A stretch of 64,000 bases of DNA, taken from IMG/VR virus record IMGVR_UViG_3300015360_000023, positions 64,001-128,000 of that record. One strand, 5' to 3'. The DNA comes from a virus. Lineage: Duplodnaviria > Caudoviricetes. Position numbers and translations under genes: made by a program. Positions 8,109-44,217 of this stretch are shown here, piece by piece; positions within the stretch are counted from its first letter, which is position 1, and every line of letters starts with the position of its first letter. Below the pieces are notes generated by a model that did no database searches, had not been told where the DNA came from, and worked only from the letters and a program-made list of their open reading frames with translations.

Positions 8109-11100
8109 ATGGCTAACATACCAGGCGCAACAAATGTCCTACCAGGAGTTTTTACTGACGTAATAACTCAATCACGTGGAGTATCCGTTCCTGGTGGTTC
8201 ACGTATAGCTGCAATGATCGGTGAAGGCTCTACCGACGAAACTATCGTTTCGCAAGCCCTTGGCGGCGGCCAAGATGGTTTAAATTCAAGTTATACCGGC
8301 ACTACTGGCCGAGACGGAAGACACTTCCAACTTGTTAATTTCCCATTAGTTTCTAACAGAGTTTCTATATTTAAGAATGGAATTCCACTTAATGGTCTTG
8401 AGTCTCTTATTGATTCTAATCCATTTAGCAGTAAATACGATTACAGAATTGATATTACTACAGGTAAACTGGAACTACAACGTGGTCATTTATTTGACCA
8501 AGGCGGTTCTTTCTGGACGGCTCTTTCTACTAACGTAGGTCAAGGCTCTCTTTCTAGCCTAACTTTGGTTGATGCCAATGCTCTTCCAGAGACCTGGACT
8601 GTTAGATGTGTCAAGGTTCAAAGAAACTCTCTTAATCAACCAATTGCAAACACTGCTTCCTTCCTAGCTTTCGGTTCCGTCTCCGGTTCTAAGTTAGATG
8701 CTAATGGCAATCCAATCATTTGGCTTGCTGACGGTACTGTTGTTTCTAACGGTGTTATTAGTTTCTCTATTACCGAGACCACTCCAGTCTTTAGAGAAGG
8801 TGATGCATTCACAGTTGTAATTGCTAGCGGAGTTCTATCAAGAAACGACTCTTTAACTGCAAATTATATTCCAGTCGCTATTTTGAATGACCCTCTTCTT
8901 GTTCAAGGTCTTGGTGACGTTGTCAGAAGGCACGGTCTTCCAAGCCTAAGCAACAATCTTGCTTTGGGCGCTCAATTAGCTTTCGCTAACCAGGCTCCAG
9001 CCTTGTTAACGGTTCAGGCTGCTCCTCCACTGCCAAGAAGAACCTCTTATCTATTAAACAGCGAAGTAAATGCTTTGGCTCTAGATACAGATGAGTTCAC
9101 TTTTCCGTTGCCATTCGGTGTTATTCCGGACCTTAACTCCAACATCCACTTCTTTGTTAGAAACAATGCAACTAACACTGAAACCCAAATTCTTCCTAAC
9201 AAGTTTGATTACTACCAATTAGATGAGTCCGGCCAACCAACTACTCAACAATTTATTTTTGATGACGTACCTGCTCCAGGCGGTCACTCCTACTTCTATA
9301 CTGTAAAAGAAAGCCTTGAGGCCCTTAATTATGGTGAAGATGGTTACATCGGTAGAAACTTAGCTTTCAACAATCAAGGTCTATTTAGCTCTGCTTCTAT
9401 TACTTTTGATTCCACTTACGTAGGAAAAGCTCTAAAGATTACTGAGTCTAATAACTCCGCTAACTTCGGTATCTTCAATGTTACCGCAGTTCAAAATGGT
9501 AAACTTTATGTCGTAGCCGATGATAGCATTTTCTCTCCATCTACTCTACAAGCTAATCCAGTTTACTTATCAGACTTCATTAACGTTGCAACTCCAACGG
9601 CCTCCTTCCGTGTAATTGATCCAGTTACTGGATTACCAGTCGGCGGTGGCGCAGGTACTGACGGTTACATCACCACTGTTGGTGCTACAACTGGTCAAGC
9701 AACTGTTAAGAGCGCTTCTGTTAATACTAACGCTATCGCAGGTATCTTAGGGTACAAGCTAGAGATTACTGGCCCAACTACTAACTTCACGGCAGCACAG
9801 CCAGTTGGTAACCTTGGCCTATATGATATTTCTGCTGCACCTACATTCACTGTAACTGGTGCAACAAATGCATCTCCAATTGAAATTACAACCAGCACTG
9901 CTCACGGTTTATCCTCTCAGGACACCGTAACCATCTCTGGTGTTGTTGGTAACACGGCAGCTAACGGAACTTTCCAGGTTGTCAGCACTGGTGCAAATAC
10001 ATTCACCTTAAATGGTTCAACGGGTAACTCTGCATATGTTTCTGGTGGAACTGTATATCCTCACAAGCTAACTATCACTAAGGCTATCGTTAACGAAAGT
10101 GATCTTGAATTCGAAGTTCTAGACCCAACACTTACGAGCAGCTATGTTGTTGTTAACCACAACGTAGTTCCAAACGGATATGGTCTAAGAGTAACTATCG
10201 TTGACTCTAGAGATGCAAGCTTCTACGATGCAGGCTGGATCAATGCCTTCGATGCTCTTGAAAAGGTCGAATGTGACATTCTGGTTCCGCTTCCAAAGCA
10301 AACTATCTCCATTATTTTCCAGACCGCTTTAGCTCACTGTATAACAATGAGCAATATCCGTAACAAGAAAGAAAGAGTCTTGTTCATGGGAGCAATTAGT
10401 GGTTTGACCCCTGACAACATCACTGGTGTTAAGCCGGCCGCTGTTGAAGACATCGGCGTCCTAGAAGGTATTCAAGGCGAAACCGTAACCGACATTCTTG
10501 CCGGTAACGTTGAAGACTTGGCTAACTACTCTGTTCCAGATGCCTTTGGTAACACCTTCAGAGCTGTATACTTCTATCCAGACCAGATTGTTGTTCAAGC
10601 TGGTTCTGACAATGTCTTGATTGACGGATTCTACCTAGCCGCAGCCGCTGCTGGATATGAGGCTGCCGACGTAAGACTTGAAAACCCACTTACAAAGAAG
10701 ATTCTAACCGGATTCACTATCCTTAGAAATAAGCAATTCTCTCCACAAACTCTTGAAGCCTTGGCTACAGCCGGTGTCACTACCTTGCAGCCAGTTGCAG
10801 GAGGCGGTCAGATCGTTTGGGGACGCACCACTACTCAGAGTGGATTCCCAGAAGAGCAAGAAATCTCAATTGTCTTTATCAGAGACAGGGTAGCCAAAAC
10901 CTTGAGAGCAGGATTCGAAGGTTTCATTGGAAACCCAGAATCAGTTAATACTGGTGCAATTTTGAATACTCGTGGTGTCATCTTGATGAACTCACTAGTA
11001 GCTCAAGGATTGATTACTCAGTATAAGGACTTATCTGTCATCAGAGATGATGTAGATCCAACTCAATGGAACATTACTGTTAGAGTTCAACCAACCTACC

Positions 11101-28128: not shown

Positions 28129-31100
28129 ATGGTCACAATACGCTCAGTAAACGAAATCATCTTAAGCTTGATAGACTACTACAGGTTAGCCCAACCTGAT
28201 TTAGATACCAAACCGGGCACCGTGGCTCGCGATTTGATGATCGACGGCCCTTCGAGCCAGCTTGCTTTGCTATATGACCAACTATCAAGCGTCTCTAGTC
28301 AGCAATCTATGAGACTTGTTATTGGTGCCGACCTGGACAAGCTAGCCAAAAACTTCGGAGTTATTAGAAAGCAATCTACTTCTGCTACAGGAGTCGCTCT
28401 ATTAACCTTTGCATCCATTAATGCACCTATTCCTATTAACACCGGAAGCTTAGTTATTTCTAATAATGGTTTTTCTTACTCTATTACTTCAGGAGTCTCA
28501 GTTACTCCTGGCTCTTCTAACTTCTATCGTTCAGTAGCTAGTAAATTTCAAGACCAACTAGATGCTGCCGGAATTAAAGATCAATATGCGGTTGAAGTTA
28601 CTGTCATAGCAACCACCGCAGGCTCTTCTGGTAACATTGGAACACTATCTCTAAATAGAACTAACGTCTCTGGCGTCTCCAACGTAACCAATATAAATTC
28701 ATTTACTGGCGGGACTGATCAAGAAGATGACTCTAACTTCCGTAATCGCGTCCTCGCGGCCTTTAGCGGGTCGAGCATAGGAACTGCCTTGGGCTACCTA
28801 AACACCGCCCTAGGTACCACTGGCGTGTCGGACGCGGCCGTTATTGAACCAGGCGATGCTCTAATGACCAGAGACGGCACCGTTGTCAGCATAGCTAGCG
28901 ACGGAACTCGTACTATTGTCTCAGAGGGCTCTGGAGGAAAAGTAGATGTTATTGTTCTAGGTTCTAGCTTAGTTCAAAATACAGATACTTTCATTTACAA
29001 AGATAAAAGCAACAACACAGATCCTACTAGTGTTAAAAATGATGTGGTCATTGGTCAAATTGCGGCTGATGTTAATAAAACTATTAACAGAAAAAGAATT
29101 GATGATCTTAAAGCTGGTCAAGTTCCAGCTCAACCAGTTAATGATATACTAACTGTTACTGGATCTATAAGCGGCTCCAATTTTATTGCCAAAACAACAG
29201 ATACTTATGGCAGAGTCTCTGGAAATTTTGAATTACTTAAAGATACTGGTGTTTACGGCGGCAGCCCTTTTGGATTTGATACGTTTCATTGGGTCTCCAA
29301 TAAAATTTCATTATTCAGTGAAGATAGAATTAAGAGCCAGTTCAACGGACAAGACCCTACAACATTTACTGATGTATTAGAGATTCCTCAAGTTCAACAA
29401 AGCCTTTCTATTACTAACGAAAACAGCATCGTTACTAGTGATAAATCTATTATTCAATTACTTCATACACCAGCTACTAGTATTACTAGAGTTTTCAATG
29501 TTAACACTGGTGAAAGATATATTATCACAGATCAAGATCTTGATGAGACCGGCGTATACAATACTACTGGACGTATTCAAATCTCTGGTAACACGCTACC
29601 ATCCACTAGTGACCTACTACAGGTAGACTATAGCTGGATCGTTAATTTTGATCAGCATTCCGATTATGATGGGTTAACCCAAACAAGTAATCCAAGAAAC
29701 GTTACAGATAGCATTGACTGGGGTTACTCTTCCGCCATTCATAATGAGCGAGTCAACTTTGTACTAACGGTTGGAGACAACTTCTTTACCGGAACAACCA
29801 GCCACCCAGTTGATACTGTGGTTTCTACCAATGTATTTACTGAGGTTGATGCTGCGGTTACCTTGGTTACTTCCGGAACTTATGTTAATAGGCTCTCTGT
29901 CGTTATTGATCATTTACCAGTAACTGTAGATAGCGTTGATCAGATAACTCTTAAGAATTCTAATATTGAAATTTACAATAGCGCTCAAGCAAACGGTAGT
30001 TTCACTGTAACTACCGAAGTAGTTGGTATTGAAATTCTATATGTATTAACGGTTATCTTACCAAATGATACGGTAGCTAAGGCTGGCGATACTGTTAGCG
30101 TTATTCTAAATAGCACTAATGTCTTTCACTCTGAAGAAACGGCCGGTAGTAGCAGCGGTACACAGATTACCATTCCAAGTTCTTTAATTAATACTACAGC
30201 TACTAACATCACCTTACTAGTAACTTACATTGCGAATATCACTGATTTGTTTGCGGCCTCTGTTACTGCCCTTCCATCGAGCAAGGTCGGCAATGGATTC
30301 AACCTATCTAACAACAACGGGTTCCCAAATTTTAGCTCGGCCAATACATCTGTTAGAGAGAATCAAATTGTTCAGCAAAACCTTAGCAATCAATATTATA
30401 TTGAAGTAACTGCGCCTAGTGCTGATTTCACCATTGCAGCTTCGCAAGTTGTTTCCATTATCAGACTATCTGACGGATATGAATTATGGTCGGCCAATCA
30501 TCCCGGAACCATCGATATTGGAATTTCGGGTAATTACCAATTTATTTTACCAGGTTTAAACACGCCAGCTACTGGGGACAGAGTTTTGGCCGTTTATTAT
30601 TCTACAGATATCAGAAGGTTTCAACCATTTAGTTTTAGCAACTCTTTGATTAAGACAAGGGTACATAACTTAGCTTATGTAGCTCCTGCCAATACAAAGT
30701 TTAGCGTTCCATTAAATAGTTTCACTAATGCCACAGGGTTATCTTTTTATGTTATTGAGCCTAATACAGATATTGTCTTGTTATCTGGTTCAGATGGCGT
30801 GTTAACTACCAGCATAAGCGGTAGTGCTAATTTCACCAGCTCTACTGTTGACTTTTCTGATCAAGTAGATATTACACATAAAAAGATAAAAATAGTAACG
30901 CCAGTTAGCGGACTTACTCGTTTGAATAACGATGGCGTTTATGATATTACTAGTTATACTTTGAGCGGTAATAGTTTGGTTATTACTGAGGTGTTAAGTA
31001 ATATAAATAAAGATAACATCTCTGTTATTAGAGTAGTTGATGGCAAGGAAGTTTGGGGTTATTCTGGAACTATAGATCTAGCTAACAATAGAATAACTTT

Positions 31101-32243: not shown

Positions 32244-35200
32244 ATGGTTGGCAAACTAAGTATCATCAATGTCAAAGTCGTAGATAATTCAAATATAGAT
32301 GTCACTTTTTCTTCGACTTTAACAGCTAATTTGATTACGTCTAACGTTACTATCGTTAGCGATACTATCGGTGCGCCTGATTCTGAGATATTAAATGTTA
32401 AAGTTTCTGGAGCTTTACTATCAATCACTTGCCAGCCGCTCACTCCATTAGCTTCTTATTTCATAATTTTTAAGTCATCTCCGTTGCACCCATTTCAATC
32501 ATTGAATGGTGATTTTTACTTACCAGAAGATGGTGTTAATAACAAGTATGGCATTACTGCTCAGTTAGATGCCGATAATCCTATTAAGAATTATCTTGGC
32601 GCTTTCTTTAGAGATAACGTCTATAAACTAGATGATGATAATACGCTTGTAGCTAAATACATTCAATCTCTTGCTGTTGTTTTATCAAGAGCGCTTTATG
32701 ATATTGGTCAAGTTAAAAATGAAAACTACTTATCTTTCACTATAGCAGATGAAAGAAGAATTAGGGGAGCGGGAGCTTTTGATAGACTAGATGAAGAGGG
32801 CGCGTATTCCGTCTCAAGAGTAGGTAGAACTCCTACTGGATTCGCCGCTAATCAAACTTTTGTATTCTCTTCTTTCCCTACATTCCCGGTCACTTTGCAA
32901 AAGCAAAGCAGCGTCGAAACATTAACGCCAAACACTATTGATGATGCAGGCTTCTTTGATATTAATAACCTAACTCTTAATTTAAACAAGTCTCCAGTTA
33001 CTAGAGTTACTAGTGTTGTATTTACTCTTAACACAATCACCCCTGTATATACATATGATATTGAGCGACACGGATATCAGATTAAAGATTCTAGATACTC
33101 TCAGGATTATGGGTTTACGTACCTACAATTAGCTGATAACCAAATTAGACTTAGCGATCAAATCATATCTGATCCATTATTTGATTTAACTAAAATTATT
33201 CAAGTAGAAGTTCAGTACGAATACAAGAATTTAGGAATCATAGTTAACCCAGCAAGCGTGGTAGTTTATTCATCCGAGATTTCTCCTAGAGAAGTTCTTC
33301 CACCAATCATAAACGTTTTTAATCTGGCACACGCTCCAATCATTGATAGCTCTAATAGAATTTCTACTTTAGCTGGTGCCACTTTTGATGACCCTAATTC
33401 CAATACTGGTTCGACCCACCCAGCTTTTAAATTTGAAATTCCGTTTAGATTTGATGCTTTGCCATCAGCTCCAGGACAGTATGCTGTCGACTATAATACG
33501 GGCACAGTCTACGTCTATGGCGCCGACTTAACCAATGATGGTACTGGCCCATTTCCCCCATTAGCTACTTATAGATATAGGCTGGTATATCAATCTGAAA
33601 TTGATTACACGTATGATGATGACTTTCGTGATATTGTTGCTTTGCCTACGGGTAGCTTAGTTGAAGCGCCAGGTAACGTAGCCTTTTCTTACGAAGAAGT
33701 ATTGGTTGCAGGAATCGATTACGAGGCCAAATTACACTCAGAAGAACTTACTGAAAGAATTGATAACAACTTAGTAGCTTTCAACGTTTTAAGAACTAAG
33801 CACACGCCCATCACTAATGTCTTTAGAGTTTACAATGAAACTTCTGGAGAAATTTATACCATCAATAGATGGAGTGATGAGAAAATCTATTTTAGATACA
33901 ACACTCCTCCTCGACTTGTAGCCAGGATCGCTGAGCGCGCCACCTTCAATACAATTCCTAATGAGAAGCTATTTATACATACTACATTAGTAAATAGCTC
34001 TTCACTTAAAATTTTCCAAATATTTCTTAACAAGAATAGAGTTGTATCTTCTACTGAAGACGGTCTAGGGGCTTTCTTGAATAACAGCCTTTCATTAACT
34101 GATGCGAATGTATTTGTTAGTGAAAGATGGTATGATTCAGAATTTAGTCAAACAGTTAACATTGATAAGTTAACTATTATTGGCGAATACATGGTAGATT
34201 ATCTAAATGGAGTAATCTATTGTGCAGTTTCTAATACTCAAGGATTAGAGATTGGAACGGCCACCTATAAGAGTAGTGATATCGTTCCTGAGTTTCCACA
34301 TTTGATTGCGGTTGATGATATTTATTATCAAATTAGTCCACTTAATGAGAAGAACAAGAAATTTTCTTTTACTTCATTTGATGATGGGATCATTTCTCCA
34401 GAACTGTTAGAAATTGTTGATGAAAAATTCCTTAATGGATTTGTCGGAGCGCCTTACCAGCTCTTCAGTAAGTCTGTTGGAACTTTCTCTGGAACCTCCT
34501 TTATTTCTGGAGTAACCAATTCAGTTAAACTTGTTCGTGGACTTTATGAACACGAAGATCTAGTCTACAGCACTCGACCATTTAATTTTGCTCAATCAAG
34601 TTCATCCAACGGATTCAATGTAACAGTTAATTCTTATAGTAAACAAATTTTTGAAACAGTTCAATATGATGGAATGGATTATTACGTCAACATCAATGAG
34701 AGCGTTCCTTACTTATCAAGTAACATTACTTACGACTTCAGCGTAATAAGGGTCTCTGATGGATATCAACTATGGGATAACTCAGGAACAGTTGTTCCGG
34801 GCAGTTCAATTAAATTGATTTTTTCTGGAGTCAATTCTCCGGCCCTAGGAGACCAAGTTAATGTTATTTACTCCTTTACTATTAATGATTTATCTAGAGT
34901 TATCGTAGATTATAATAAAGGTGATTACTTTATAGACTATACTTATTTAGCAGATGAAATTATCGTTAGCTATGAATATGGTGATAACGTTCTTGATTTT
35001 CGCCGTAACACTAATTTACCTACCGACACCAATTACTTCGTTACTTATAAGGCGGGAGCCCTTAGAGATGCCTTATTAAAGAATTTCGGCACTCTAGTTA
35101 ATATTCCCGAACTATCCAATTTCGATATTGATTTTGATCGTGAGCGTTATCGTGAAGCCTTGATTGCTGCGCTAAGCTCTTTCATTCAGGGTCCAACAGT

Positions 35201-38200
35201 TGCTGCTATTAAAAATATTGGAAAAACGATTTCCCATATTGAGCCTCAGGTTATCGAAGATGCATTTATTGATTGGTCTTTGGGCAGTAGCACGTTGTAC
35301 CCAGAAAACCTAGCTACAACAGGATCATTTGATACTGAATCGGTTAAATACGGTACTGGAATTATTGTTAACGATCCAGGTCAAACTATTCAATTTCCAG
35401 TCAATTCAAACATTAGATTTGAAGAGGGAACTTTTGAAACTTGGACGAAGCCTAAGTGGAATGGCTTAGATAATGATGCTCACTTAATTTTCACCATTCT
35501 AAAAGCTGGTCTTGCTATTCCATCTAATGAGGTCTTCGTTGGTTCATCCGAGTACCACCCAGAATTAGTATCTGGATCATTTACTTTGGGTAAACTGGAC
35601 AATGCTCTAGGTACGCCCAACATCAATAAAGATGGCGTATATATTTACTACGACAAGGATGCATCAGGAAATTTCTATCGTTGGTATGTTAGAGTCATCG
35701 ACGGCTATGTTGTTCCTAATTCTGATACTTATAAAATCACCATTAAGTCTGATGGTAAATTCTATGATAATAAAAGTCTGACTCTACCAAAACCAAGTAA
35801 CTTATCTATCATGAGCGGTAATACCTCTCAAAGCTTTACCTTAACTGGCGGCAGCTTTGGCGTGGATGCCGGTATCACCTTCTTATCTGATTTGGAGCAT
35901 TACCTATTAGATTTTGGAAAAGATAAAGATCATAGTAGACTTTCTATTTATAAAGACGTTAGTGGATATATGAATTTCCGCGTCTTTGACAAAGATGGAC
36001 ATAACTTTACTGTTAGTGCCGACATCTCTGCATGGAGATACAATGAGATCCATCATATTGCGGCTTCCTGGAAACTAAATACAATTAATGGAAGAGATGA
36101 AATGCATTTATTCCTTGATGGATTTGAAGTTCCAAATATCATTAAGTATGGACAAAAATTACAACCATATCTTCATGAAAAATTCCGTACAGTAAATCCG
36201 GAAGAAATCATTGGATTAGTTGATAAGGATATCGTCGGCTCAGTGGATTTGGTAACCAACTTAGGCAGCAACGTAGTTACTTCTACTTTGAATTTTGGAA
36301 CTTACGACATTGATATTGGTGATAATATTATCATTGACGAAGTTGGATTCTCTCCTACTGGTTATACGATCACCAATGTTAGCGGCCAAGCTTTAACTCT
36401 AAGCTCATCAATGCCCACAACTTTGACCAATGGTCGTTTCTCTATCAACCGCACTCAGTTCACTGTTACTTCGGATATTGACACCGCACCAAATATCGCC
36501 GTTACAACTATCCCAACCTTCCTAACTGGAGCAGACGCTACGGGTACCAGCGGGTCTAATGTAATTACTTCTACTCTGATAAATTTTGCTACAAGCGATG
36601 TTGAGCCAGGATTCTTAATTAGAATCGATGCTCTTGGATTTGATATTTATAGTATAGTTCAGGTATCAGGTAATACGGTAACAATCGACGGTCCCTTGCC
36701 CGCCAACTTACCAGCAACAGCTTTCGCAGTTTACAGTAATACTGAAACAGAGATCCCAGGCGTAAGAGCTATTAGACCATCCTACAGCATTACTAAAGAT
36801 GGATACTTTGATAATATACTTACTATTTCAAATAATGTTTATGCTGGCGATTTAATTTTGGTTAGAACTCTAGGACTAAATCACAAAAGTATTAGAAGAT
36901 CTTATTATGTTTGGAGTGATGGTCAAGAGAATGTTTTGATGACTCAGCTTCCACCTCCAATTTCTTTGGATGAAGCTAAGATCACTAAGGTTATCTTGCC
37001 TCGTACTTTCGTAGGGCCAAGTAACTCCACATTAACTCTAGGTGTCTTTGTATCGAATAATTTCCCAGGGTTGCCAACTACTACTTCTCAAAACGGTAGA
37101 ACGCTAACGGTCACACTTTCTGGTAATAATACTGATTTTACTACGCCAGTATCTGTAGTTGTTAATGGTCTTGTTGGGGTTAGTGTTATTAGCGAAACTG
37201 TTAGTTTCACGGATTACGGCAAGCTTGATACGGTTAATAAATTCCTTACGGTTAACTATGTTCAATCATCAGCAATGCCTATTGATGTTCTTAAGAATGC
37301 TGTTACAATTGAAGTAAAAGAAAAATACCCTATTACTTACTCAGAGTCTAGCTCACTGGCCCCAGTAGTTAGATACAGCTACCACATGGGCGGGGGTAGT
37401 AGTCTATACAATGACAGCGCAACCTCTGTTAGAGATGAAAACTTCTTGTTCAGCGGGCTTGATATCGGTAACTATCTAGTTATTCATTCGCCTATGTCTG
37501 TTGCTGGATTCTACATAATTACAGGTTTCTCTGAAGATAGAAAGTCTCTTTTCATTGAGTCCACACTTCAAGCTCCAGCCCAACCACTACCTAATTTCAC
37601 TGATGGAGTTTATCAAGTTCTTAGTGTAAATGATTATAGAAGCGGATTACAGAATGGTTATTTTACCCTAGAGGATGGGGTGTTACCGTCACAGCCCTAC
37701 TTCTTGTTACATGGTTTCTATGAATTAGAATATGATACTTATACGAGTATTCGTTTAGACGCCTCTCCACATAGCGCCTTCTTAGGAACTGATTTCCTTG
37801 GACATCATCAATTTAATGGAACAATCGATCAACTTAAGATTTATTCTGTAATGTTAACCGACACCAGAATTGGGGAAACAATCCCAAGTAATCAAAGATC
37901 AATTACAAAAGATTTTAACTCTCTTAAGGCTTTAAGAACTGATATTAATACTCTTATGTTAGTTAATTTTGATTCATTGCCATTAATAAATGAATCTAAG
38001 TACTATACTAATACAAATAACTACAAGGGCCAATTTCAATCTTCTATTGTTATTAATGAAAATTTTGGAAACAGTCTAGGTATTACTAATAATCCAATCA
38101 TCATAGAAAACACGGGCATTCTAAATACTAAGAAGGAAGGAACTATTGAGTTCTGGGTTAACCCACTATTTGATAGCGCTAACGATCCCTTCGATAGATT

Positions 38201-39398
38201 CTATTTTGATGCGTATGGGGCTAAAATTGAAGAGGCGGTTAGTGTTAATAATGTTGCCGTTAAATTGTCTTCTCCAGCTAGCAGAATTTTAAGTGTTCAT
38301 CTTAAGTCTGGTGATCCTCGTATTGATTATTTCATGGGCGGCAAGATTGAGATTGATACTCAGCATGCCATCCAGGAAGCAGTTACTAGTACGACTAATA
38401 GTTACGTAACTGTTAGCAAGCCAATCCTGCAAATTATCACCGTTAAAATTGTTGGTGACAAAACTGGTACAGATTATTTTCAGACCGGAACCGTTAGTAG
38501 CGATCAGATGACCATTTACTTGGGAAGAAATCTTCCAGCTAGCAACATGCCATTGATAATTACTTATCAAAGCACCGAAAACAAGAATGTGGATTTAAAT
38601 ACTCAGGTTATTAGATTAAATAGGAAGTTACCTTATCAAAACGCTCACGTTGTGGTTAAGTACATCCCTCAAGGTCTACAGGGTGACCGTATCGCTGTCT
38701 TCAAAGACAAGGCAGGCTACGTCAACTTTGGTATCTCTGCCTCTGGTAAAGACTTCGTAGTGCGCGCACCCACTCGCTGGGCCCGTAACACCTGGCATCG
38801 TGTCAAAGCTTCTTATAAAATTAATGGGGAGCTTGGTTCTGATGAAATGAGACTGTTCCTTGATGGGTATCAGTATACGAACATTGCTTTCGGCTCTAGC
38901 ATCCTATTTGGCAAGTCTCCAATTGTATATGGTTCTGCTCAACCTGGTGCCTTCCAAGGAGCGGATGGGTATACCTTTGTTCAGAGTATCAAATTCAAAG
39001 ACTCAATAAATGATCTATATATTGGAACACAATACACTGGTGAGAACCCGGTCTTTGCCTTATTAGATAATTTTAGAATCAGCACTATTTCTAGGCCAGT
39101 CTATGCGCCGTATGGTGAACCGTTAGACGTCAATTATAGCACTAACTTAAATACAGTCTTCCCAGTTACTGAGGACTTGTTCACTACTTACTTAATGAAT
39201 TTTGACAAAAAGATGGTTCTGAATGATAATTTCGCTATTCTCAAAAACAGAAAGACCGGACTATTTGATTTTTCAGTAAATATTATAGATTCTTTTGGTA
39301 TAGTAAACAGTAGCATTAAGGTACAGGAAGTTTTGGAGAAGTTGATAAAAGTGCTAAAGCCGGCTAACTCCAGGGTATTTATCCAGTATATTAGGTGA
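32244..39398 (+). CDS. giant baseplate wedge protein (gpI/gp7-like) with two LamG/ConA-like domains
   Basis: ERYREALIAAL...GPTVAAIK and terminal LIKVLKPANSRVFIQY are wedge motifs. EGTFETWTKP...HHIAASW...LFLDG...FNGTIDQLKIY and EGTIEFWVNP...WHRVKASY...LFLDG...LDNFRIS are LamG motifs. Confidence 0.65.
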   Translation: MVGKLSIINVKVVDNSNIDVTFSSTLTANLITSNVTIVSDTIGAPDSEILNVKVSGALLSITCQPLTPLASYFIIFKSSPLHPFQSLNGDFYLPEDGVNNKYGITAQLDADNPIKNYLGAFFRDNVYKLDDDNTLVAKYIQSLAVVLSRALYDIGQVKNENYLSFTIADERRIRGAGAFDRLDEEGAYSVSRVGRTPTGFAANQTFVFSSFPTFPVTLQKQSSVETLTPNTIDDAGFFDINNLTLNLNKSPVTRVTSVVFTLNTITPVYTYDIERHGYQIKDSRYSQDYGFTYLQLADNQIRLSDQIISDPLFDLTKIIQVEVQYEYKNLGIIVNPASVVVYSSEISPREVLPPIINVFNLAHAPIIDSSNRISTLAGATFDDPNSNTGSTHPAFKFEIPFRFDALPSAPGQYAVDYNTGTVYVYGADLTNDGTGPFPPLATYRYRLVYQSEIDYTYDDDFRDIVALPTGSLVEAPGNVAFSYEEVLVAGIDYEAKLHSEELTERIDNNLVAFNVLRTKHTPITNVFRVYNETSGEIYTINRWSDEKIYFRYNTPPRLVARIAERATFNTIPNEKLFIHTTLVNSSSLKIFQIFLNKNRVVSSTEDGLGAFLNNSLSLTDANVFVSERWYDSEFSQTVNIDKLTIIGEYMVDYLNGVIYCAVSNTQGLEIGTATYKSSDIVPEFPHLIAVDDIYYQISPLNEKNKKFSFTSFDDGIISPELLEIVDEKFLNGFVGAPYQLFSKSVGTFSGTSFISGVTNSVKLVRGLYEHEDLVYSTRPFNFAQSSSSNGFNVTVNSYSKQIFETVQYDGMDYYVNINESVPYLSSNITYDFSVIRVSDGYQLWDNSGTVVPGSSIKLIFSGVNSPALGDQVNVIYSFTINDLSRVIVDYNKGDYFIDYTYLADEIIVSYEYGDNVLDFRRNTNLPTDTNYFVTYKAGALRDALLKNFGTLVNIPELSNFDIDFDRERYREALIAALSSFIQGPTVAAIKNIGKTISHIEPQVIEDAFIDWSLGSSTLYPENLATTGSFDTESVKYGTGIIVNDPGQTIQFPVNSNIRFEEGTFETWTKPKWNGLDNDAHLIFTILKAGLAIPSNEVFVGSSEYHPELVSGSFTLGKLDNALGTPNINKDGVYIYYDKDASGNFYRWYVRVIDGYVVPNSDTYKITIKSDGKFYDNKSLTLPKPSNLSIMSGNTSQSFTLTGGSFGVDAGITFLSDLEHYLLDFGKDKDHSRLSIYKDVSGYMNFRVFDKDGHNFTVSADISAWRYNEIHHIAASWKLNTINGRDEMHLFLDGFEVPNIIKYGQKLQPYLHEKFRTVNPEEIIGLVDKDIVGSVDLVTNLGSNVVTSTLNFGTYDIDIGDNIIIDEVGFSPTGYTITNVSGQALTLSSSMPTTLTNGRFSINRTQFTVTSDIDTAPNIAVTTIPTFLTGADATGTSGSNVITSTLINFATSDVEPGFLIRIDALGFDIYSIVQVSGNTVTIDGPLPANLPATAFAVYSNTETEIPGVRAIRPSYSITKDGYFDNILTISNNVYAGDLILVRTLGLNHKSIRRSYYVWSDGQENVLMTQLPPPISLDEAKITKVILPRTFVGPSNSTLTLGVFVSNNFPGLPTTTSQNGRTLTVTLSGNNTDFTTPVSVVVNGLVGVSVISETVSFTDYGKLDTVNKFLTVNYVQSSAMPIDVLKNAVTIEVKEKYPITYSESSSLAPVVRYSYHMGGGSSLYNDSATSVRDENFLFSGLDIGNYLVIHSPMSVAGFYIITGFSEDRKSLFIESTLQAPAQPLPNFTDGVYQVLSVNDYRSGLQNGYFTLEDGVLPSQPYFLLHGFYELEYDTYTSIRLDASPHSAFLGTDFLGHHQFNGTIDQLKIYSVMLTDTRIGETIPSNQRSITKDFNSLKALRTDINTLMLVNFDSLPLINESKYYTNTNNYKGQFQSSIVINENFGNSLGITNNPIIIENTGILNTKKEGTIEFWVNPLFDSANDPFDRFYFDAYGAKIEEAVSVNNVAVKLSSPASRILSVHLKSGDPRIDYFMGGKIEIDTQHAIQEAVTSTTNSYVTVSKPILQIITVKIVGDKTGTDYFQTGTVSSDQMTIYLGRNLPASNMPLIITYQSTENKNVDLNTQVIRLNRKLPYQNAHVVVKYIPQGLQGDRIAVFKDKAGYVNFGISASGKDFVVRAPTRWARNTWHRVKASYKINGELGSDEMRLFLDGYQYTNIAFGSSILFGKSPIVYGSAQPGAFQGADGYTFVQSIKFKDSINDLYIGTQYTGENPVFALLDNFRISTISRPVYAPYGEPLDVNYSTNLNTVFPVTEDLFTTYLMNFDKKMVLNDNFAILKNRKTGLFDFSVNIIDSFGIVNSSIKVQEVLEKLIKVLKPANSRVFIQYIR

Positions 39399-39406
39399 GA
39401 TAGATT

Positions 39407-42400
39407 ATGACTAAACGCACACCCGTATCCGCACAACAAAACATATGGTCTGATGGTCAACAAGTAGATAATGATGATCTTACTTTAGAACAGCAGTATA
39501 ATGATACTATTGAGTCTTCTACGATCAATAATCATGTTGGCACGGGCGTTCTCCCAGAAGTTTTAGTTCAAAATATCATTTTTGACTCGTCTTTGGCCGC
39601 TGGCGTTCTAGATGGTAAGGCTATTTTTGCTCAAAACCAACCAACTGATAAAAATCTAGGTAATCAACTAGAAGTAAGTCTAGCTCAATCCAAGGCAGCC
39701 AGCCGTAAAGCTGTTAAAGTTGCTATAATTGGGTTAGATTTTCAAAGCAATTTAGAGTTTGAAACCTTTACTTTCAAGGCTAATGAAGCTCAGGTGAGCA
39801 AGAAGCATTTTGCTCAAGTAGTTCTAATTCTATTTAATGATTTTATTGGAGATGATGAACTATCTCTTAATCTAGGTGGGCGAATCCTTATTAAGGAAGC
39901 CCGCCCAATGACACTGTCCAGGTCTCCAATTATGGTGGCTCAGGACGTTCAACCTAATCTATTCTTCCGTGACTTCTTCTTAGATGGGCCGCTATCTTTG
40001 AATGCTCTGCTTCAAGCAGCTCTTCCATTATACAATACTGATACGCTAGATATCTTTACTGGAGATCTTGAAAAGAAACTATTATTGAGTGGTGATGTTA
40101 CTACTCAAATTGGCGAGAAGTTTTTGGCTACTACCAATAACGTTCAGAAGGTTACCCTTTTACTTGCTGTTCGTAACCAAGTAATCGGCAGTGAAACCGA
40201 CTTATCCTGGAACGGCGATTTAGTTGTTAGTATTTATCCACTACAATCTGATGTAGATTGTCCGTCTGATATCGCCCCCACTTTACCTATTGATTTCTCT
40301 CCATCCAATATTCCGGTTGCTCAAATCAGTACAAACTTCGCTTCCTTACAAGCTGCGGGTATCGTTCTTGATTCTGTTCCCCAGCCAGTTGACTTCATTT
40401 TTAGCAACAGCCCTATTGCTAGTGGTAACGTTCTTATCCCTGGGCAATACTACGCGCTAGCTATCAAGAGAAGCGGCTCCGCCAACAAGTGTGACATTAT
40501 GATTGATGTTGGTGATGCTCAAATCGCTAACTCTAGAATCACTACTTTCACAGGATCTCTTTGGGTTGACATTCCTGAACAACAACTTTGGTTTAGGGTA
40601 TGGCACGATGCAGCAAAAATCTCAGACGGCCAAGCTTATGAAGCAGGTCACGGTATTGCTATTGAGAAAACTGCTCAAGATTCTAATACACTTACTACAG
40701 TAGATTATTCTAAAGAACCACTTCAGTTTACTGGAAACGATGTTTTTAGAGCTATCGTAGCTGCCACCACCGAAGAAAGTGTCCCGGTCCCAGATCAAAG
40801 AACTGGTAATCCAGTTCTTACCCGCCAGCAGTTTATTCCAAACGTTACACTATTAAATACAATTGACGTGGCTAATTTGGAGGCTGCTTCCGAGCCATTA
40901 ATCATTGGGGTTATCTCTGATAAAAATAGAAAGTTTTTCGACTCTATTTCCTCTTTGATAAATTCAAAAATTTACAGCGCGACCTTTGTTAAAGATGAAC
41001 TATTAATTAGAATCGTTGATGATGTAACTGACGGCTACAGATATGATACGGGCGTTATTGGTCTTCAAACTAATTTGCTTAATGGAGATTTCATTGGCGC
41101 TAAGTTATTCCCTAACTCTAATAATCCTAACACCTTTTATAGAATCGCTGATGCTAGACTTTGTTCTTACATCTTGGGTGACGTAGACGGTAACGGTATC
41201 ATCGACGAGCACGACTTAGATTTACTAACTTCTTATGTTGGCACTAATCTAACTCTTGGCTTGCCACTTAATACTGTTCTTACTACAGATAACGTAACTA
41301 CTACTTTCACTAACGGTTACATTACGGTTACACAACCATTTACTAATTTATTTAGTGTTACATTCCAATTGATTGAAACTTCTACTGGTACGGTTGTAGC
41401 AAGCGGTTCAGATGGTGTTCTTGTTGCCAATCCAGCCGATCCTCGTTTGGCTCAGTTTACTAGCGCTACGGTTAACTTCAATGTTATCGTCGGTCTAACG
41501 GATTACAAACTAGTTATTATTGCTCCATTGAGTGAACCAAACTACGGCGCATTTGAAATTACTTCAATTGATTCACTCACAGATGTTCTTACTCTTAGAA
41601 AAACCTATCTAACTGGAGATGCTATTGGTGAGATGCTAAGAGCCGATATTGATGGCGACTTCCATATTACTATTAATGATGGGTATTTACTAAGTAGTTA
41701 TATTGACAGGGTTCCGCTAACCATGTCTCCAACCAGCACTTTCCCTGGACCATCAACTAACGCCTACACTAAGATTGGTGTTACTTTCAATGTTCTTAGA
41801 TTTAGACTTGAGACATACATCGATAGAGCTGACGATTATACTAATTTGACTGTTGGAAGATCTGCTAGCATTCATACTACACCAGATATCTTTACCGCCG
41901 ATGGTTATTTCTCATTGCATGACTTTTTAGCCTCTCCGGTTCCAATTACTATCCAAAAGCAACTTACATGGGACGAGTCCTTAATTGTTACTAATAGTAA
42001 TCCAAAGATGGTTCCAAGTGTCTTCACTAATCAATCGGGGTTCATTCAAAATGAATGCCTTGTTGAAGGAATCAATTGTACTATCTATGGTTCTAGACCA
42101 GATTTTGATCCTGGTACTGTAGACTTCTTTGCTCCAAATAATCTAATCATTGGTCAGGGAGAAATTCACAGACCAGATGGAGAGTTTTATAAGGTAGACT
42201 TTGAAGTTGGTACCATTGTTCTAGAAATTCCAGATGGTTTATTCGGTTCTGAAAGAACTGTTAATATCTTGGATGATTTTATTGCAGACTATACTGGTGC
42301 CGGTGCAACTCGTTTAGGATTCCCATCAATGAAGTTTGCTGATTGTTCATTCGTAACAGCAGATGCTTTAGCTAATGATCAATTAAGATTCTCTGTTGCA

Positions 42401-43417
42401 GTTCAGTCTTTCTCTCCAAATACAAATGGAATGAGTGACGACGGCTACTTCGGCGCCATCGTGGACGGCAAGATTGGCGTCTCTATTGATTATGGTACTG
42501 GTTTACTAACTCTAAATTTCACAAACTTATTTGAAGACTCTGTTCTTTCATCACTAAGTACTAAAATTCAAATTCATGTCTTCTTAAAGAAGGGTGGATT
42601 TAACAACCGTCCATTATTCGTAGACTCTGTGAAAGTTCAGAATATGCTAAAGCTTATTTCTGTCTTCTCTGGAGCCAATGATGGCGGACCTTCCGCTTTG
42701 GTTGATTTGAATTCAGACGTAAGTGGTATCCTGCCAATTCTTCACGGTGGTACTGGGCTTAATGCAACTGGATTATTTGGAACTGTCTTAACTAGTACGG
42801 GCAGCGGTCTTAATTATCAATTCGTTAATACTCTAACTAATGTTATTGCGTTTTCTACTGGTATTCCAGATGCTGATAGAGTGCCAAAGACAGATGGTTA
42901 CGGATTACTAGACCCAAGCTTCTATTACAAGCAACCAATGTATATCTGGGGTGTCGCGGGAACTTTCTCAAGCGACGGCTACGCATCCCCATCTGTTATC
43001 GGCGCTTTAACTTTTAGATTCGACAAGTTCATTCTAGAAGGATTATCAGATATTAAAATTGAAGCAATCTTAGAAACAACTAATGCAACTAATGCTGCAC
43101 AGTTACAATTGTATAATGTTAATACTCACAGCTATGTAAATTTGGGCGGAACAGGTAATGCAATTACTACAACTAGTACTTTTCCAACTTTAGTTACATC
43201 TCAAGACATTAAAGCCTTGTTATCATCGGGCGCCACCAATTTCATTTATGAAATTCATTTGAATATGAATCCATCTCCTGGTAACCCTGTCTCCGAGCAA
43301 GCTATCTGCAAGATGTGTCGTTTAGTTATGACTTACAATAATCCAACTACTCCAACTCCTCCAACGGCTCATAGCTGGAACTTCGTACCATATTTGCCTT
43401 CTCCAACCCCAATATAA
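39407..43417 (+). CDS. baseplate/fibre-anchoring protein with dockerin-like EF-hand pair
   Basis: N-terminal WSDGQQVDNDDLTLEQQY anchor-like motif. Contains GDVDGNGIIDEHDLDLLTSYV and ADIDGDFHITINDGYLLSSYI. Confidence 0.6.
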   Translation: MTKRTPVSAQQNIWSDGQQVDNDDLTLEQQYNDTIESSTINNHVGTGVLPEVLVQNIIFDSSLAAGVLDGKAIFAQNQPTDKNLGNQLEVSLAQSKAASRKAVKVAIIGLDFQSNLEFETFTFKANEAQVSKKHFAQVVLILFNDFIGDDELSLNLGGRILIKEARPMTLSRSPIMVAQDVQPNLFFRDFFLDGPLSLNALLQAALPLYNTDTLDIFTGDLEKKLLLSGDVTTQIGEKFLATTNNVQKVTLLLAVRNQVIGSETDLSWNGDLVVSIYPLQSDVDCPSDIAPTLPIDFSPSNIPVAQISTNFASLQAAGIVLDSVPQPVDFIFSNSPIASGNVLIPGQYYALAIKRSGSANKCDIMIDVGDAQIANSRITTFTGSLWVDIPEQQLWFRVWHDAAKISDGQAYEAGHGIAIEKTAQDSNTLTTVDYSKEPLQFTGNDVFRAIVAATTEESVPVPDQRTGNPVLTRQQFIPNVTLLNTIDVANLEAASEPLIIGVISDKNRKFFDSISSLINSKIYSATFVKDELLIRIVDDVTDGYRYDTGVIGLQTNLLNGDFIGAKLFPNSNNPNTFYRIADARLCSYILGDVDGNGIIDEHDLDLLTSYVGTNLTLGLPLNTVLTTDNVTTTFTNGYITVTQPFTNLFSVTFQLIETSTGTVVASGSDGVLVANPADPRLAQFTSATVNFNVIVGLTDYKLVIIAPLSEPNYGAFEITSIDSLTDVLTLRKTYLTGDAIGEMLRADIDGDFHITINDGYLLSSYIDRVPLTMSPTSTFPGPSTNAYTKIGVTFNVLRFRLETYIDRADDYTNLTVGRSASIHTTPDIFTADGYFSLHDFLASPVPITIQKQLTWDESLIVTNSNPKMVPSVFTNQSGFIQNECLVEGINCTIYGSRPDFDPGTVDFFAPNNLIIGQGEIHRPDGEFYKVDFEVGTIVLEIPDGLFGSERTVNILDDFIADYTGAGATRLGFPSMKFADCSFVTADALANDQLRFSVAVQSFSPNTNGMSDDGYFGAIVDGKIGVSIDYGTGLLTLNFTNLFEDSVLSSLSTKIQIHVFLKKGGFNNRPLFVDSVKVQNMLKLISVFSGANDGGPSALVDLNSDVSGILPILHGGTGLNATGLFGTVLTSTGSGLNYQFVNTLTNVIAFSTGIPDADRVPKTDGYGLLDPSFYYKQPMYIWGVAGTFSSDGYASPSVIGALTFRFDKFILEGLSDIKIEAILETTNATNAAQLQLYNVNTHSYVNLGGTGNAITTTSTFPTLVTSQDIKALLSSGATNFIYEIHLNMNPSPGNPVSEQAICKMCRLVMTYNNPTTPTPPTAHSWNFVPYLPSPTPI

Positions 43418-43424
43418 TGCGGAC

Positions 43425-43453
43425 TTGACATGCTCCATTGGCCGCCCTATCTT
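43425..43453 (+). promoter_or_regulatory. sigma70-type promoter
   Basis: TTGACA (43425-43430), a 17-nt spacer, then TATCTT (43448-43453). ATG at 43462 with no SD. Confidence 0.7.
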
Positions 43454-43461
43454 GTGCGACT

Positions 43462-44217
43462 ATGAGTAAATTATCAGCAAAAATTACAGGTCGCCTGGAT
43501 TCGATGTACGGTAAAGAGTCTGTTTTTCGAAAATTTTGTCGCAAGTATTTTGGCCTTCCTTCTGTTATTGAATTAGGGTGGAATGATTGTAATGCGCTTG
43601 AAATGGCTGAGTTCAGTGATGAACCTAAGGGTAAAACCTGGGAAGATTATGATGCCTACATGAAGAAGACATATCCTACTCGTTTCTTCTTTAACAAGAC
43701 GCTCCCTAAGTTTTTACGATACAAGATTTGGTTTAAATTATCGATTCCTGCCGAAAAGATTCGCTATTTCTTGGTTTCTCATTTAATTCCAAGTCGCCGT
43801 TATCATATGCTTGATTTGCGTCAAGAAGGTGGATATCAATATGGCTGGAATGATGTTCCTGAAAAGATGCTCTATGCTATATTCAATCTTCTTGGAGAAT
43901 ATGTTACCAAGGAAGAGCCGCATGATCTGACTCAGTGGTATACTCAGGAACAAATTGATGCTGATGAGGGGCTTACTGCTCAGCAAAATTCAATTCTGGA
44001 AGCCCGAGCCATTCACCACTGGTGGACGGTTGAGCGTAAGGAGAATGAGAAGGAGAGGGCTCGTCTACTGACTCTTTGGGCGGATGCGCGTAAAACCAAA
44101 GATCCTAAAAAAGAAGAATATTGGATTCAGATGCATAAAATGGATGAGGATGCTGAAACAAAAACTGATGAAATGATTGCTCGTCTAATGAAGATTAGAC
44201 GAACTCTTTGGACTTGA
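43462..44217 (+). CDS. hypothetical protein (aromatic-rich)
   Basis: The track's TTG start at 43438 lies inside the promoter spacer, so ATG 43462 is preferred. No family recognised. Confidence 0.75.
   Translation: MSKLSAKITGRLDSMYGKESVFRKFCRKYFGLPSVIELGWNDCNALEMAEFSDEPKGKTWEDYDAYMKKTYPTRFFFNKTLPKFLRYKIWFKLSIPAEKIRYFLVSHLIPSRRYHMLDLRQEGGYQYGWNDVPEKMLYAIFNLLGEYVTKEEPHDLTQWYTQEQIDADEGLTAQQNSILEARAIHHWWTVERKENEKERARLLTLWADARKTKDPKKEEYWIQMHKMDEDAETKTDEMIARLMKIRRTLWT

What the first reader, a model, noticed from the sequence alone, without database searches (positions are those of the whole stretch)
41177..41704. Split dockerin-like EF-hand pair in a virion protein, with a shared tail module inserted between the repeats
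Seen: GDVDGNGIIDEHDLDLLTSYV (41177-41239) and ADIDGDFHITINDGYLLSSYI (41642-41704) both match the dockerin repeat (Ca-binding loop D-x-D/N-x-D/N-x-x-I-x-x-x-D plus helix LL..Y). Established: in cellulosomal dockerins the two repeats start roughly 30-35 aa apart and bind cohesins in a Ca-dependent way. Here they start 155 aa apart, and the gap contains the G.DG module. Inference: a Ca-dependent plug-in site on the baseplate, either for a phage-encoded cohesin-like receptor-binding protein (interchangeable fibres) or for a host surface cohesin. This is my best candidate for an undescribed system. No cohesin was recognised in the window.
Basis: partly seen in the sequence, partly recalled or inferred. 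Interest (0 to 1): 0.75.

Follow-up and report, generated by a model that had tools for sequence, protein, structure and literature searches.

The report
Split dockerin in megaphage baseplate protein
A tail-baseplate protein of an uncultured giant phage carries a genuine calcium-binding "dockerin" plug cut in two by an extra inserted domain; the halves are predicted to fold back together, but none of the eleven phage records searched (ten of them 78-100% complete) encodes a recognisable "cohesin" socket, so its job is probably structural.

Summary
Two dockerin-type repeats (calcium loop plus helix) start at residues 592 and 747 of the 1336-aa ORF 39407-43417. They are the only two such motifs in the window (0.0035 expected by chance).

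- **Conservation:** both repeats, their calcium ligands and the ~155-aa spacing are kept in 119 of the 120 listed homologues.
- **Fold:** in an AlphaFold2 model (pLDDT 88) the two halves pack into one dockerin. The best solved match is the C. thermocellum Xyn10B dockerin 2CCL_B (Z 8.2, 59 of 62 residues, 1.9 A).
- **Insert:** the gap holds a ~120-aa beta-barrel module. Paralogues sit in this phage's sheath and baseplate-J proteins.
- **Sister clade:** its orthologues (~1000 aa) have an uninterrupted dockerin that passes Pfam PF00404 over the full model. The insert is therefore a domain insertion into the dockerin linker.
- **Carrier protein:** it has a lectin-like domain resembling a phage 812 baseplate chain, probably the tripod protein, and swappable fibre-type C-terminal tips.
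- **Partner:** no cohesin was found in this record or in ten relatives that are 78-100% complete. Each of the six genomes checked has only this one dockerin.

The "plug-in site" reading is unsupported but not excluded. A calcium-stiffened structural pedestal is more likely. First readers of this scan noted the same split dockerin on at least three other genomes, and a follow-up on a megaphage baseplate dockerin reached a similar verdict.

The parts
39407..43417 (+). P0002, a 1336-aa peripheral baseplate or receptor-binding-type protein that carries the split dockerin
   Evidence: ORF, translation. It follows the sheath, baseplate J and a 2384-aa LamG wedge protein. More than 300 homologues exist, all metagenomic or viral, and none was found in one genome each of 185,579 prokaryote species.
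39920..40612 (+). Lectin/CBM-like beta-sandwich domain (aa 172-402)
   Evidence: AF2 model of aa 1-588, pLDDT 85.8. VIA-align: phage 812 baseplate chain 9euf_0 Z 13.8, Cwp84 lectin-like domain Z 12.1, Bxb1 tail tip Z 11.5, many CBMs. Foldseek: 9eui_Q E 6.7e-6.
41138..41173 (+). Beta strand (aa 578-589) just before the dockerin; with aa 793-803 it brackets the module
   Evidence: DSSP of model m01aced89430b, strand at model residues 29-40. That the two strands pair is inferred.
41177..41239 (+). Dockerin repeat 1: Ca loop D592-D603 and helix 1 (aa 601-609)
   Evidence: Pfam Dockerin_1 aligns aa 591-612 to profile positions 2-23. Profile search of PDB sequences hits dockerin repeats.
41249..41614 (+). 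Inserted module (aa ~615-736) whose core is a beta barrel at aa 648-735 (the 'G.DG' module)
   Evidence: BLASTP against orthologue P0167 skips exactly aa 619-741. AF2 strands lie at model residues 99-186. Weak fold matches to phage neck/tail-tube-like and PilZ barrels, Z 5-7.5. Paralogues in baseplate J and sheath.
41615..41704 (+). Dockerin helix 2 (aa 737-746) and repeat 2: Ca loop D747-D758 and helix 3 (aa 756-766)
   Evidence: The profile matches the second repeat of dockerin 4uyp_B and calmodulin EF loops.
41783..41815 (+). Beta strand (aa 793-803) just after the dockerin
   Evidence: DSSP of model, strand at model residues 244-254.
42632..43414 (+). C-terminal fibre-type region: a conserved stretch with a GGTG motif (aa 1076-1141) and an exchangeable tip (aa 1142-1336)
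   Evidence: The ~1335-aa class shares the whole region. The ~1180-aa class shares only aa 1076-1141 and then ends in a different short tail. Sister-clade orthologues end near the equivalent of aa 1085.
30715..30993 (+). Paralogue of the inserted module in the baseplate-J protein (aa 863-955 of ORF 28129-32241)
   Evidence: hmmsearch with the insert profile: 43.8 bits, E 4.6e-14. phmmer: E 3.3e-10.
9321..9785 (+). Two paralogous copies of the module in the sheath protein (aa 405-463 and 497-559 of ORF 8109-11144)
   Evidence: hmmsearch: 34.1 bits in total, domains of 13.6 and 20.9 bits. The module also occurs in another phage's sheath protein, P0159.
43438..44217 (+). Syntenic 259-aa protein downstream; candidate fibre chaperone, not a cohesin
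   Evidence: K/E/W-rich, helix-type sequence. It keeps this position in 17 related loci. No Pfam family. The helical fold and the chaperone role are both inferred from sequence composition and position.

Best explanation
Shown here:
- The two motifs are the two loop-helix (F-hand) halves of one type-I-like dockerin.
- The dockerin is built into the middle of a peripheral baseplate or receptor-binding-type protein.
- The phage is an uncultured megaphage. This record is 202,609 bp and about 47% complete, and complete relatives are 430-480 kb.

Inferred from comparison:
- A sister clade of orthologues keeps the ordinary uninterrupted dockerin.
- In the clade of this window, a ~120-aa beta-barrel module was inserted into the linker after helix 1. 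The same module decorates the phage's sheath and baseplate-J proteins.
- This gives a domain within a domain within a domain.

Inferred function:
- The module binds two calcium ions and acts as a calcium-stiffened pedestal or joint.
- It sits on the surface of the baseplate protein and displays the beta-barrel.
- It does not act as a socket for a dedicated cohesin partner.

My confidence is about 0.9 for the anatomy and about 0.5 for the structural (no cohesin) function.
For: - **Motifs:** real and non-random.
- **Ligands and spacing:** conserved in 119 of the 120 listed homologues.
- **Sequence profile:** the profile of the region finds dockerins as the top solved sequences.
- **Model:** AF2 model pLDDT 88, pTM 0.73. 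The top structural match of 48,161 chains is dockerin 2CCL_B, Z 8.2, rmsd 1.9 A, 59 of 62 residues, 39% identity, spanning model residues 39-221. This skips the insert. Eleven further dockerin entries score Z 5.8-7.4.
- **Orthologues:** P0167 and P0164 align on both sides and lack aa 619-741. Their contiguous module scores 37.7 and 37.9 bits on Pfam Dockerin_1 (cut-off 22.9) over profile positions 1-57.
- **Tree:** one branch (SH-aLRT 99) separates 17 rows of the contiguous clade (15 with 46-aa spacing, 2 with only one repeat detected) from 44 rows with an insert or a degenerate second repeat.
- **Insert:** paralogous to modules in baseplate J and sheath.
- **No partner:** no cohesin in 11 records, 9 of them at least 91% complete. 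In the six genomes checked for Dockerin_1, matches fall only in the P0002 orthologue.
- **Loop 2 decay:** some distant insert-clade members have a degenerate second calcium loop but keep the helix. This fits a structural role.
Against: - The only established function of dockerins is cohesin binding.
- Position 10 of both repeats ranks 4th and 3rd most variable of 261 columns, and position 11 of repeat 1 ranks 8th. Positions 10 and 11 are the classic cohesin-recognition positions (from my knowledge of type I complexes), so this is what a specificity surface would look like. It is equally what a free, solvent-exposed helix face would look like.
- A Pfam search cannot exclude a divergent cohesin-like beta-sandwich inside the giant neighbouring proteins, or on the unknown host.
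- Loop 2 has Phe instead of the usual Gly at loop position 6 in 117 of 119 sequences, so calcium binding at site 2 is less certain.
- I could not inspect model coordinates. Which face of the dockerin is free is therefore unknown.
- The model was made without calcium.
Confidence: 0.6

Rival explanations
1. Host-docking plug. The dockerin is exposed on the baseplate periphery. It binds a cohesin-like module on the host surface in a calcium-dependent way and so helps adsorption.
For: - Genuine dockerin fold.
- It sits in a protein with a lectin-like domain and receptor-binding-type tips.
- The canonical recognition positions are among the most variable columns.
- No phage-encoded cohesin exists, so any partner would have to be foreign.
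- Cohesin- and dockerin-like modules occur widely outside cellulosomes. I know this from Peer et al. 2009, seen here only as a reference title.
Against: - The host is unknown. The DNA comes from microbial-mat metagenomes, not from a known cellulosome habitat.
- The module is internal, not at the distal tip.
- Some lineages let loop 2 decay.
- The dockerin is conserved across both deep clades while the true tips are swapped. An invariant receptor plug does not fit well with that.
Confidence: 0.2
2. Intra-virion plug. The dockerin binds a non-canonical, Pfam-invisible beta-sandwich domain of another tail protein, or of a neighbouring subunit. It would act as an assembly joint or an attachment site for accessory fibres.
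For: - Large neighbouring baseplate proteins carry beta-sandwich (LamG) domains.
- P0002 itself has a jelly-roll domain.
- Phage 812 baseplate arms attach receptor-binding trimers through dedicated docking loops (PMC13433997), so plug-type attachment exists in large myovirus baseplates.
Against: - No cohesin signal at E<=1 in six-frame searches of 11 records.
- A conserved in-virion interface would be expected to keep helix positions 10 and 11, yet they are among the most variable columns.
- The adjacent 259-aa gene has a helix-type sequence.
- P0002 carries its tip covalently.
Confidence: 0.12
3. Calcium switch. Binding or loss of calcium at the two loops folds or unfolds the module. This moves the attached beta-barrel and helps trigger baseplate rearrangement on contact with the cell.
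For: - Strict conservation of the ligand columns.
- Dockerins need calcium to fold. A wild-type dockerin undergoes a calcium-induced conformational change in PMC3821032.
- The module sits between two strands of the host domain like a hinge.
Against: - No direct evidence.
- Environmental calcium is usually not limiting outside the cell.
- Loop 2 is degenerate in some lineages.
Confidence: 0.08

Closest known systems
Type I dockerins of cellulosomal enzymes (Pfam PF00404), e.g. C. thermocellum Xyn10B dockerin, PDB 2CCL/1OHZ
   Same: Two 22-residue loop-helix repeats with D/N at loop positions 1, 3, 5, 9 and 12. The predicted three-helix fold superposes over 59 of 62 residues at 1.9 A with 39% identity. 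Orthologues pass the Pfam model end to end.
   Different: The repeats start 155 aa apart because a folded ~120-aa domain sits in the linker. The module is internal to a phage baseplate protein rather than terminal on a secreted enzyme. No cohesin partner is known. Loop 2 has Phe at position 6.
Ruminococcus flavefaciens group 1 dockerins, described as having the longest inter-repeat region (PMC2930009)
   Same: Dockerins that tolerate extra sequence between the two calcium-binding repeats.
   Different: There the linking segment is 37-45 aa and unstructured or helical. Here it is an independent beta-barrel domain of about 120 aa with paralogues in other proteins.
Uninterrupted dockerin in sister-clade megaphage orthologues (P0167, P0164, loci L060-L075); this may be the module that scan note e1-5365515 describes in a megaphage baseplate protein
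   Same: Same protein family: 40% identity over the N-terminal 618 aa and 36% after the dockerin. Same position of the module. No cohesin in those genomes.
   Different: 46 aa from start to start, no insert, Gly at loop position 6, and the protein ends near the equivalent of residue 1085 with no fused fibre tip.
Tripod protein gp119 of Staphylococcus phage 812 (PDB 9EUF/9EUI; PMC13433997)
   Same: A large peripheral baseplate protein with CBM- and lectin-like beta-sandwich domains. P0002 aa 172-402 match chain 9euf_0 at Z 13.8. They also match Cwp84, the same lectin-like protein that the paper names as resembling the tripod leg domain.
   Different: Only one domain is shared and sequence identity is 16%. 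Phage 812 has no dockerin. That chain 9euf_0 is the tripod protein is inferred from the paper's description, not read from the entry.

Membership tests
Type I dockerin (Pfam PF00404 Dockerin_1) | Two duplicated ~22-residue segments, each a 12-residue calcium loop (D/N at positions 1, 3, 5, 9 and 12) followed by a helix | tested here: met
   Both segments are present. Ligand columns are conserved in 119 sequences. Caveats: position 9 of repeat 2 is Thr, and position 6 of repeat 2 is Phe.
Type I dockerin (Pfam PF00404 Dockerin_1) | Score at or above the curated Pfam cut-off (22.9 bits) | tested here: not met
   P0002 scores 14.8 bits, E 0.033, with only repeat 1 aligned, because the domain is split. 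Orthologues with a contiguous module score 37.7 and 37.9 bits over profile positions 1-57. P0008, P0134 and P0156 score 26-30 bits.
Type I dockerin (Pfam PF00404 Dockerin_1) | Repeats joined by a short linker (longest described inter-repeat segment is 37-45 aa, PMC2930009) | tested here: not met
   155 aa from start to start, with a ~120-aa folded insert.
Type I dockerin (Pfam PF00404 Dockerin_1) | Compact three-helix fold in which the two repeats pack together | tested here: met
   Prediction only. 2CCL_B Z 8.2, 1.9 A, 59 of 62 residues, model range 39-221. Eleven further dockerin entries at Z 5.8-7.4. Model pLDDT 88.
Type I dockerin (Pfam PF00404 Dockerin_1) | Calcium-dependent folding and calcium occupancy of both loops | not testable with these tools
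   Needs ITC, CD or DSF on a recombinant aa 578-803 fragment, or a structure.
Cohesin-dockerin system | A cognate cohesin module that the dockerin binds | tested here: inconclusive
   No PF00963 match at E<=1 in this record or in ten related records of 336-481 kb that are 78-100% complete. The host is unknown, and divergent cohesin-like folds were not screened by structure.
Canonical EF-hand pair (calmodulin-like, PF13499) | Helix-loop-helix with an entering helix, and a score above the Pfam cut-offs | tested here: not met
   No EF-hand family was found for P0002 at E<=1. Orthologues score 16-17 bits on EF-hand_7 against a cut-off of 30. Calmodulin matches only at E 0.14 or worse with the profile.
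Peripheral baseplate receptor-binding proteins of large myoviruses (phage 812 tripod-like) | Lectin- or CBM-like beta-sandwich domains on a baseplate-attached protein encoded after the wedge genes | tested here: met
   Gene order. aa 172-402 match 9euf_0 at Z 13.8, 155 residues aligned. Foldseek 9eui_Q E 6.7e-6. Attachment to the baseplate itself is inferred.

The most novel reading that the evidence does not exclude
The split dockerin is a working calcium-dependent plug. Megaphages of non-cellulolytic mat bacteria would use it to latch onto a cohesin-like host surface protein, or to clip on an unrecognised phage partner. The variable helix positions 10 and 11 would set specificity, and the inserted beta-barrel would add a second contact. 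That would extend cohesin-dockerin recognition to virus-host attachment and show that a dockerin still works with a whole domain in its linker.
Probability: 0.2. Interest if true: 0.75.

Novelty: new variant of a known kind. Interest (0 to 1): 0.45.

Why it matters
- **Robustness of the fold:** if the prediction holds, the dockerin fold tolerates a full folded domain in its inter-repeat linker, about three times longer than the longest linker described. This bears on dockerin engineering and on annotation, because Pfam misses the split form (14.8 bits).
- **How giant phage tail proteins grow:** a mobile beta-barrel module was copied into the sheath, baseplate J and a dockerin. That dockerin is itself an insert in a baseplate protein.
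- **Function:** an ancient, strictly conserved calcium-binding module in the adsorption apparatus of 430-480 kb phages is a concrete target for testing calcium dependence of adsorption. Its function is still unproven.

Tried and rejected
- **PHROGs:** no family for P0002.
- **tblastn of P0002 against 50,697 phage records:** no match.
- **Search of one genome per prokaryote species:** no relative, so no prophage or host hint.
- **Foldseek PDB with the split model:** only weak PilZ- or trypsin-like barrel hits and no dockerin, probably because the dockerin is discontinuous.
- **ESM Atlas shape search:** TM below 0.4, a few Dockerin_1 clusters, not decisive.
- **Atlas feature searches of the N- and C-terminal parts:** all scores below 0.85, leads only.
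- **Pfam on the insert-bearing proteins P0150 and P0147:** spurious or no hits, so the module has no Pfam name.
- **Sheath tblastn:** only remote links, e.g. Bacillus phage G at 26% identity over 15% of the query. No cultured relative and no host.
- **Cohesin searches:** nothing found.
- **Literature:** I found no paper describing a dockerin with an inserted domain, or one in a huge phage. Peer et al. 2009 could not be opened.
- **Direction of change:** the tree is midpoint-rooted and was made with the quick search, so insertion versus deletion is not proven. Insertion is preferred only because contiguous repeats are the universal dockerin form.
- **Not done:** I did not run complex prediction, because no specific partner candidate emerged. 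I could not read model coordinates, so contacts between the insert and the dockerin, and the accessibility of the helix 1/helix 3 face, were not measured.
Full report
**1. Observation**

They lie in one frame of ORF 39407-43417 (+), a 1336-aa protein, P0002. The calcium loops start at D592 and D747, 155 residues apart.

A strict pattern for a dockerin repeat (loop ligands plus the hydrophobic helix) matches only these two places in all six frames of the 64-kb window. Residue-shuffled window proteins give 0.0035 matches per proteome.

**2. Setting**

- The window is bases 64001-128000 of a 202,609-bp IMG/VR virus record judged 47% complete.
- Relatives that carry the same protein are 430-481 kb and 97-100% complete. 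This is an uncultured megaphage.
- Near-identical DNA occurs in microbial-mat metagenomes.
- Gene order upstream is sheath (8109-11144), baseplate J (28129-32241) and a 2384-aa LamG-bearing protein (32244-39398). P0002 follows, then a 259-aa ORF and a glycosyltransferase cluster.
- I infer that this order resembles the P2-type J-I-H-G arrangement, with P0002 in the fibre (H) position.
- An AlphaFold2 model of residues 1-588 (pLDDT 85.8) has a jelly-roll beta-sandwich at residues 172-402.
  - Its best match is a chain of the Staphylococcus phage 812 baseplate (9euf_0, Z 13.8, 155 residues).
  - Next come a PBCV-1 capsid chain (8h2i_bG, Z 12.5), the lectin-like domain of Cwp84 (Z 12.1), a Bxb1 tail-tip protein (Z 11.5) and many carbohydrate-binding modules.
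  - Foldseek gives 9eui_Q at E 6.7e-6.
  - The phage 812 paper describes tripod proteins on the baseplate arms with CBM-like domains and a Cwp84-like leg domain (PMC13433997).
- The C-terminus is modular.
  - About 1335-aa homologues share the whole last 260 residues.
  - About 1180-aa homologues share only residues 1076-1141, which hold a GGTG motif, and then end in a different short tail.
  - Sister-clade orthologues stop near the equivalent of residue 1085.

P0002 is therefore best read as a peripheral baseplate, receptor-binding-type protein with its own exchangeable tip.

**3. What the two motifs are**

- Pfam alone is not convincing for P0002. Dockerin_1 scores 14.8 bits, E 0.033, below the 22.9-bit cut-off, and only repeat 1 aligns.
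- A search of 5.8 billion proteins found more than 300 homologues. Of the 120 best, 119 keep both motifs at about 155-aa spacing.
- In an alignment of 119 sequences (A1, residues 550-810) the loop ligands are essentially invariant. D592, D603, D747 and D758 are 119/119. Positions 3 and 5 are always D or N.
- A profile of A1 searched against all PDB sequences returns dockerins as the top hits, best E 7e-6. Calmodulin EF loops appear further down for repeat 2.
- An AlphaFold2 model of residues 550-810 is confident (pLDDT 88.1, pTM 0.73).
- An exhaustive structural comparison with 48,161 chains puts the C. thermocellum Xyn10B type I dockerin first. 2CCL_B gives Z 8.2, rmsd 1.9 A, 59 of its 62 residues aligned and 39% identity, over model residues 39-221. 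The alignment uses both halves and skips the insert.
- Eleven further dockerin entries follow at Z 5.8-7.4.

The two halves are thus predicted to pack into one intact dockerin.

**4. The insert**

- Model residues 99-186 (protein 648-735) form a beta barrel. It has only middling similarity to phage neck/tail-tube-type and PilZ barrels (Z 5-7.5).
- A profile of this segment finds paralogues in the same window. Baseplate J residues 863-955 score 43.8 bits, and two tandem copies in the sheath, residues 405-463 and 497-559, score 34.1 bits together.
- The module also occurs in another phage's sheath protein (P0159).
It has no Pfam name.

**5. Natural controls**

- A search of 1.84 billion cluster representatives found distant family members.
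- P0167 (998 aa, on a 453,626-bp contig) is 40% identical to P0002 over residues 1-618 and 36% over 742-1074. The alignment drops exactly residues 619-741. P0164 behaves the same way.
- In both, the repeats start 46 aa apart. The module scores 37.7 and 37.9 bits on Pfam Dockerin_1 across the whole profile.
- Fifteen IMG/VR loci (L060-L073 and L075), from contigs up to 409 kb, have the same 46-aa form. L074 has only one repeat detected. Other lineages have spacings of 136-178 aa by the motif scan.
- In a tree of the N-terminal 590 residues, one branch (SH-aLRT 99) separates 17 rows of the contiguous clade (15 with 46-aa spacing, 2 with only one repeat detected) from 44 rows that carry an insert or show only one repeat.
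- One insertion, or one deletion, explains the pattern. I prefer insertion because contiguous repeats are the general dockerin form, but the tree is only midpoint-rooted.
- In the literature I could search, the longest described inter-repeat segment is 37-45 aa, in R. flavefaciens group 1 dockerins (PMC2930009).
- The dockerin itself is bracketed by two long strands, residues 578-589 and 793-803. I infer a three-level nesting: barrel inside dockerin inside a baseplate-protein domain.

**6. Is it a cohesin plug?**

- Six-frame searches with Pfam Cohesin found nothing at E<=1 in this record. They also found nothing in ten relatives of 336-481 kb (78-100% complete) drawn from both clades.
- In the six genomes checked for Dockerin_1, matches fall only in the P0002 orthologue.
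- The downstream 259-aa ORF is syntenic but has a helix-type, K/E/W-rich sequence, not that of a beta-sandwich.
- The family is absent from representative genomes of 185,579 prokaryote species. No cultured relative is close. The host and its surface proteins are therefore unknown.
- The helix positions that in cellulosomal dockerins contact cohesin (my knowledge of type I complexes) are among the most variable of 261 columns. Position 10 of repeats 2 and 1 ranks 3rd and 4th, and position 11 of repeat 1 ranks 8th. This fits either a free, exposed face or a specificity surface. It argues against a conserved in-virion interface.
- In some distant insert-clade lineages the second loop has lost ligands while its helix remains.
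- In this clade loop 2 carries Phe rather than Gly at position 6.

**7. Verdict**

The anatomy is well supported, at about 0.9 confidence. It is a genuine dockerin module, split by a mobile beta-barrel domain, inside a megaphage baseplate or receptor-binding-type protein.

The function is inferred. Most likely (about 0.5) it is a calcium-stiffened structural pedestal or joint that displays the barrel. The alternatives are a host-docking plug (about 0.2), an in-virion plug for an unrecognised partner (about 0.12) and a calcium switch (about 0.08).

This is a new variant of a known kind, not a new system. First readers of this scan flagged the same split dockerin on at least three other genomes. 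An earlier follow-up on a megaphage baseplate dockerin also found no cohesin. These are unchecked AI notes and not independent evidence.

Noticed in passing
window 9879-10061 (sheath ORF 8109-11144, aa 591-651): The tail sheath protein carries a domain that passes Pfam E1_FCCH (PF16190, 34.1 bits, cut-off 29.5). The same stretch matches 'phage stabilization protein' genes of small uncultured phages at 42-52% identity.
   Followed up: no
window 39920-40612 (P0002 aa 172-402): Lectin/CBM-like jelly-roll domain whose best match is a phage 812 baseplate chain (Z 13.8), followed by a PBCV-1 capsid chain (Z 12.5) and the Cwp84 lectin-like domain (Z 12.1). This suggests glycan binding by the same protein that carries the dockerin.
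   Followed up: partly
window 42632-43414 and homologues P0003-P0121: The C-terminus comes in two main classes. The ~1335-aa class has a ~195-aa tip. The ~1180-aa class ends about 45 aa after the GGTG motif, in a ...W..SPP.TVQ.A.DRIA-type tail. Sister-clade orthologues lack the region altogether. This looks like tip exchange by recombination.
   Followed up: partly
window 43438-44217: A 259-aa K/E/W-rich ORF with a helix-type sequence keeps its place directly after P0002 in 17 related loci. By position it is a candidate fibre assembly chaperone. It has no family hit.
   Followed up: partly
P0141, P0143, P0153, P0154, L052, L056 (distant orthologues): In several distant insert-bearing lineages the second calcium loop has lost one or more ligands (for example D-I-T-G-D or S-I-G-N-T) while the following helix is kept.
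   Followed up: partly
Related IMG/VR records G001, G004, G005, G008 (433-481 kb and 336 kb): IMG/VR labels these megaphage records 'provirus'. However, the P0002 family has no relative in representative genomes of 185,579 prokaryote species. The label may be a misclassification.
   Followed up: no
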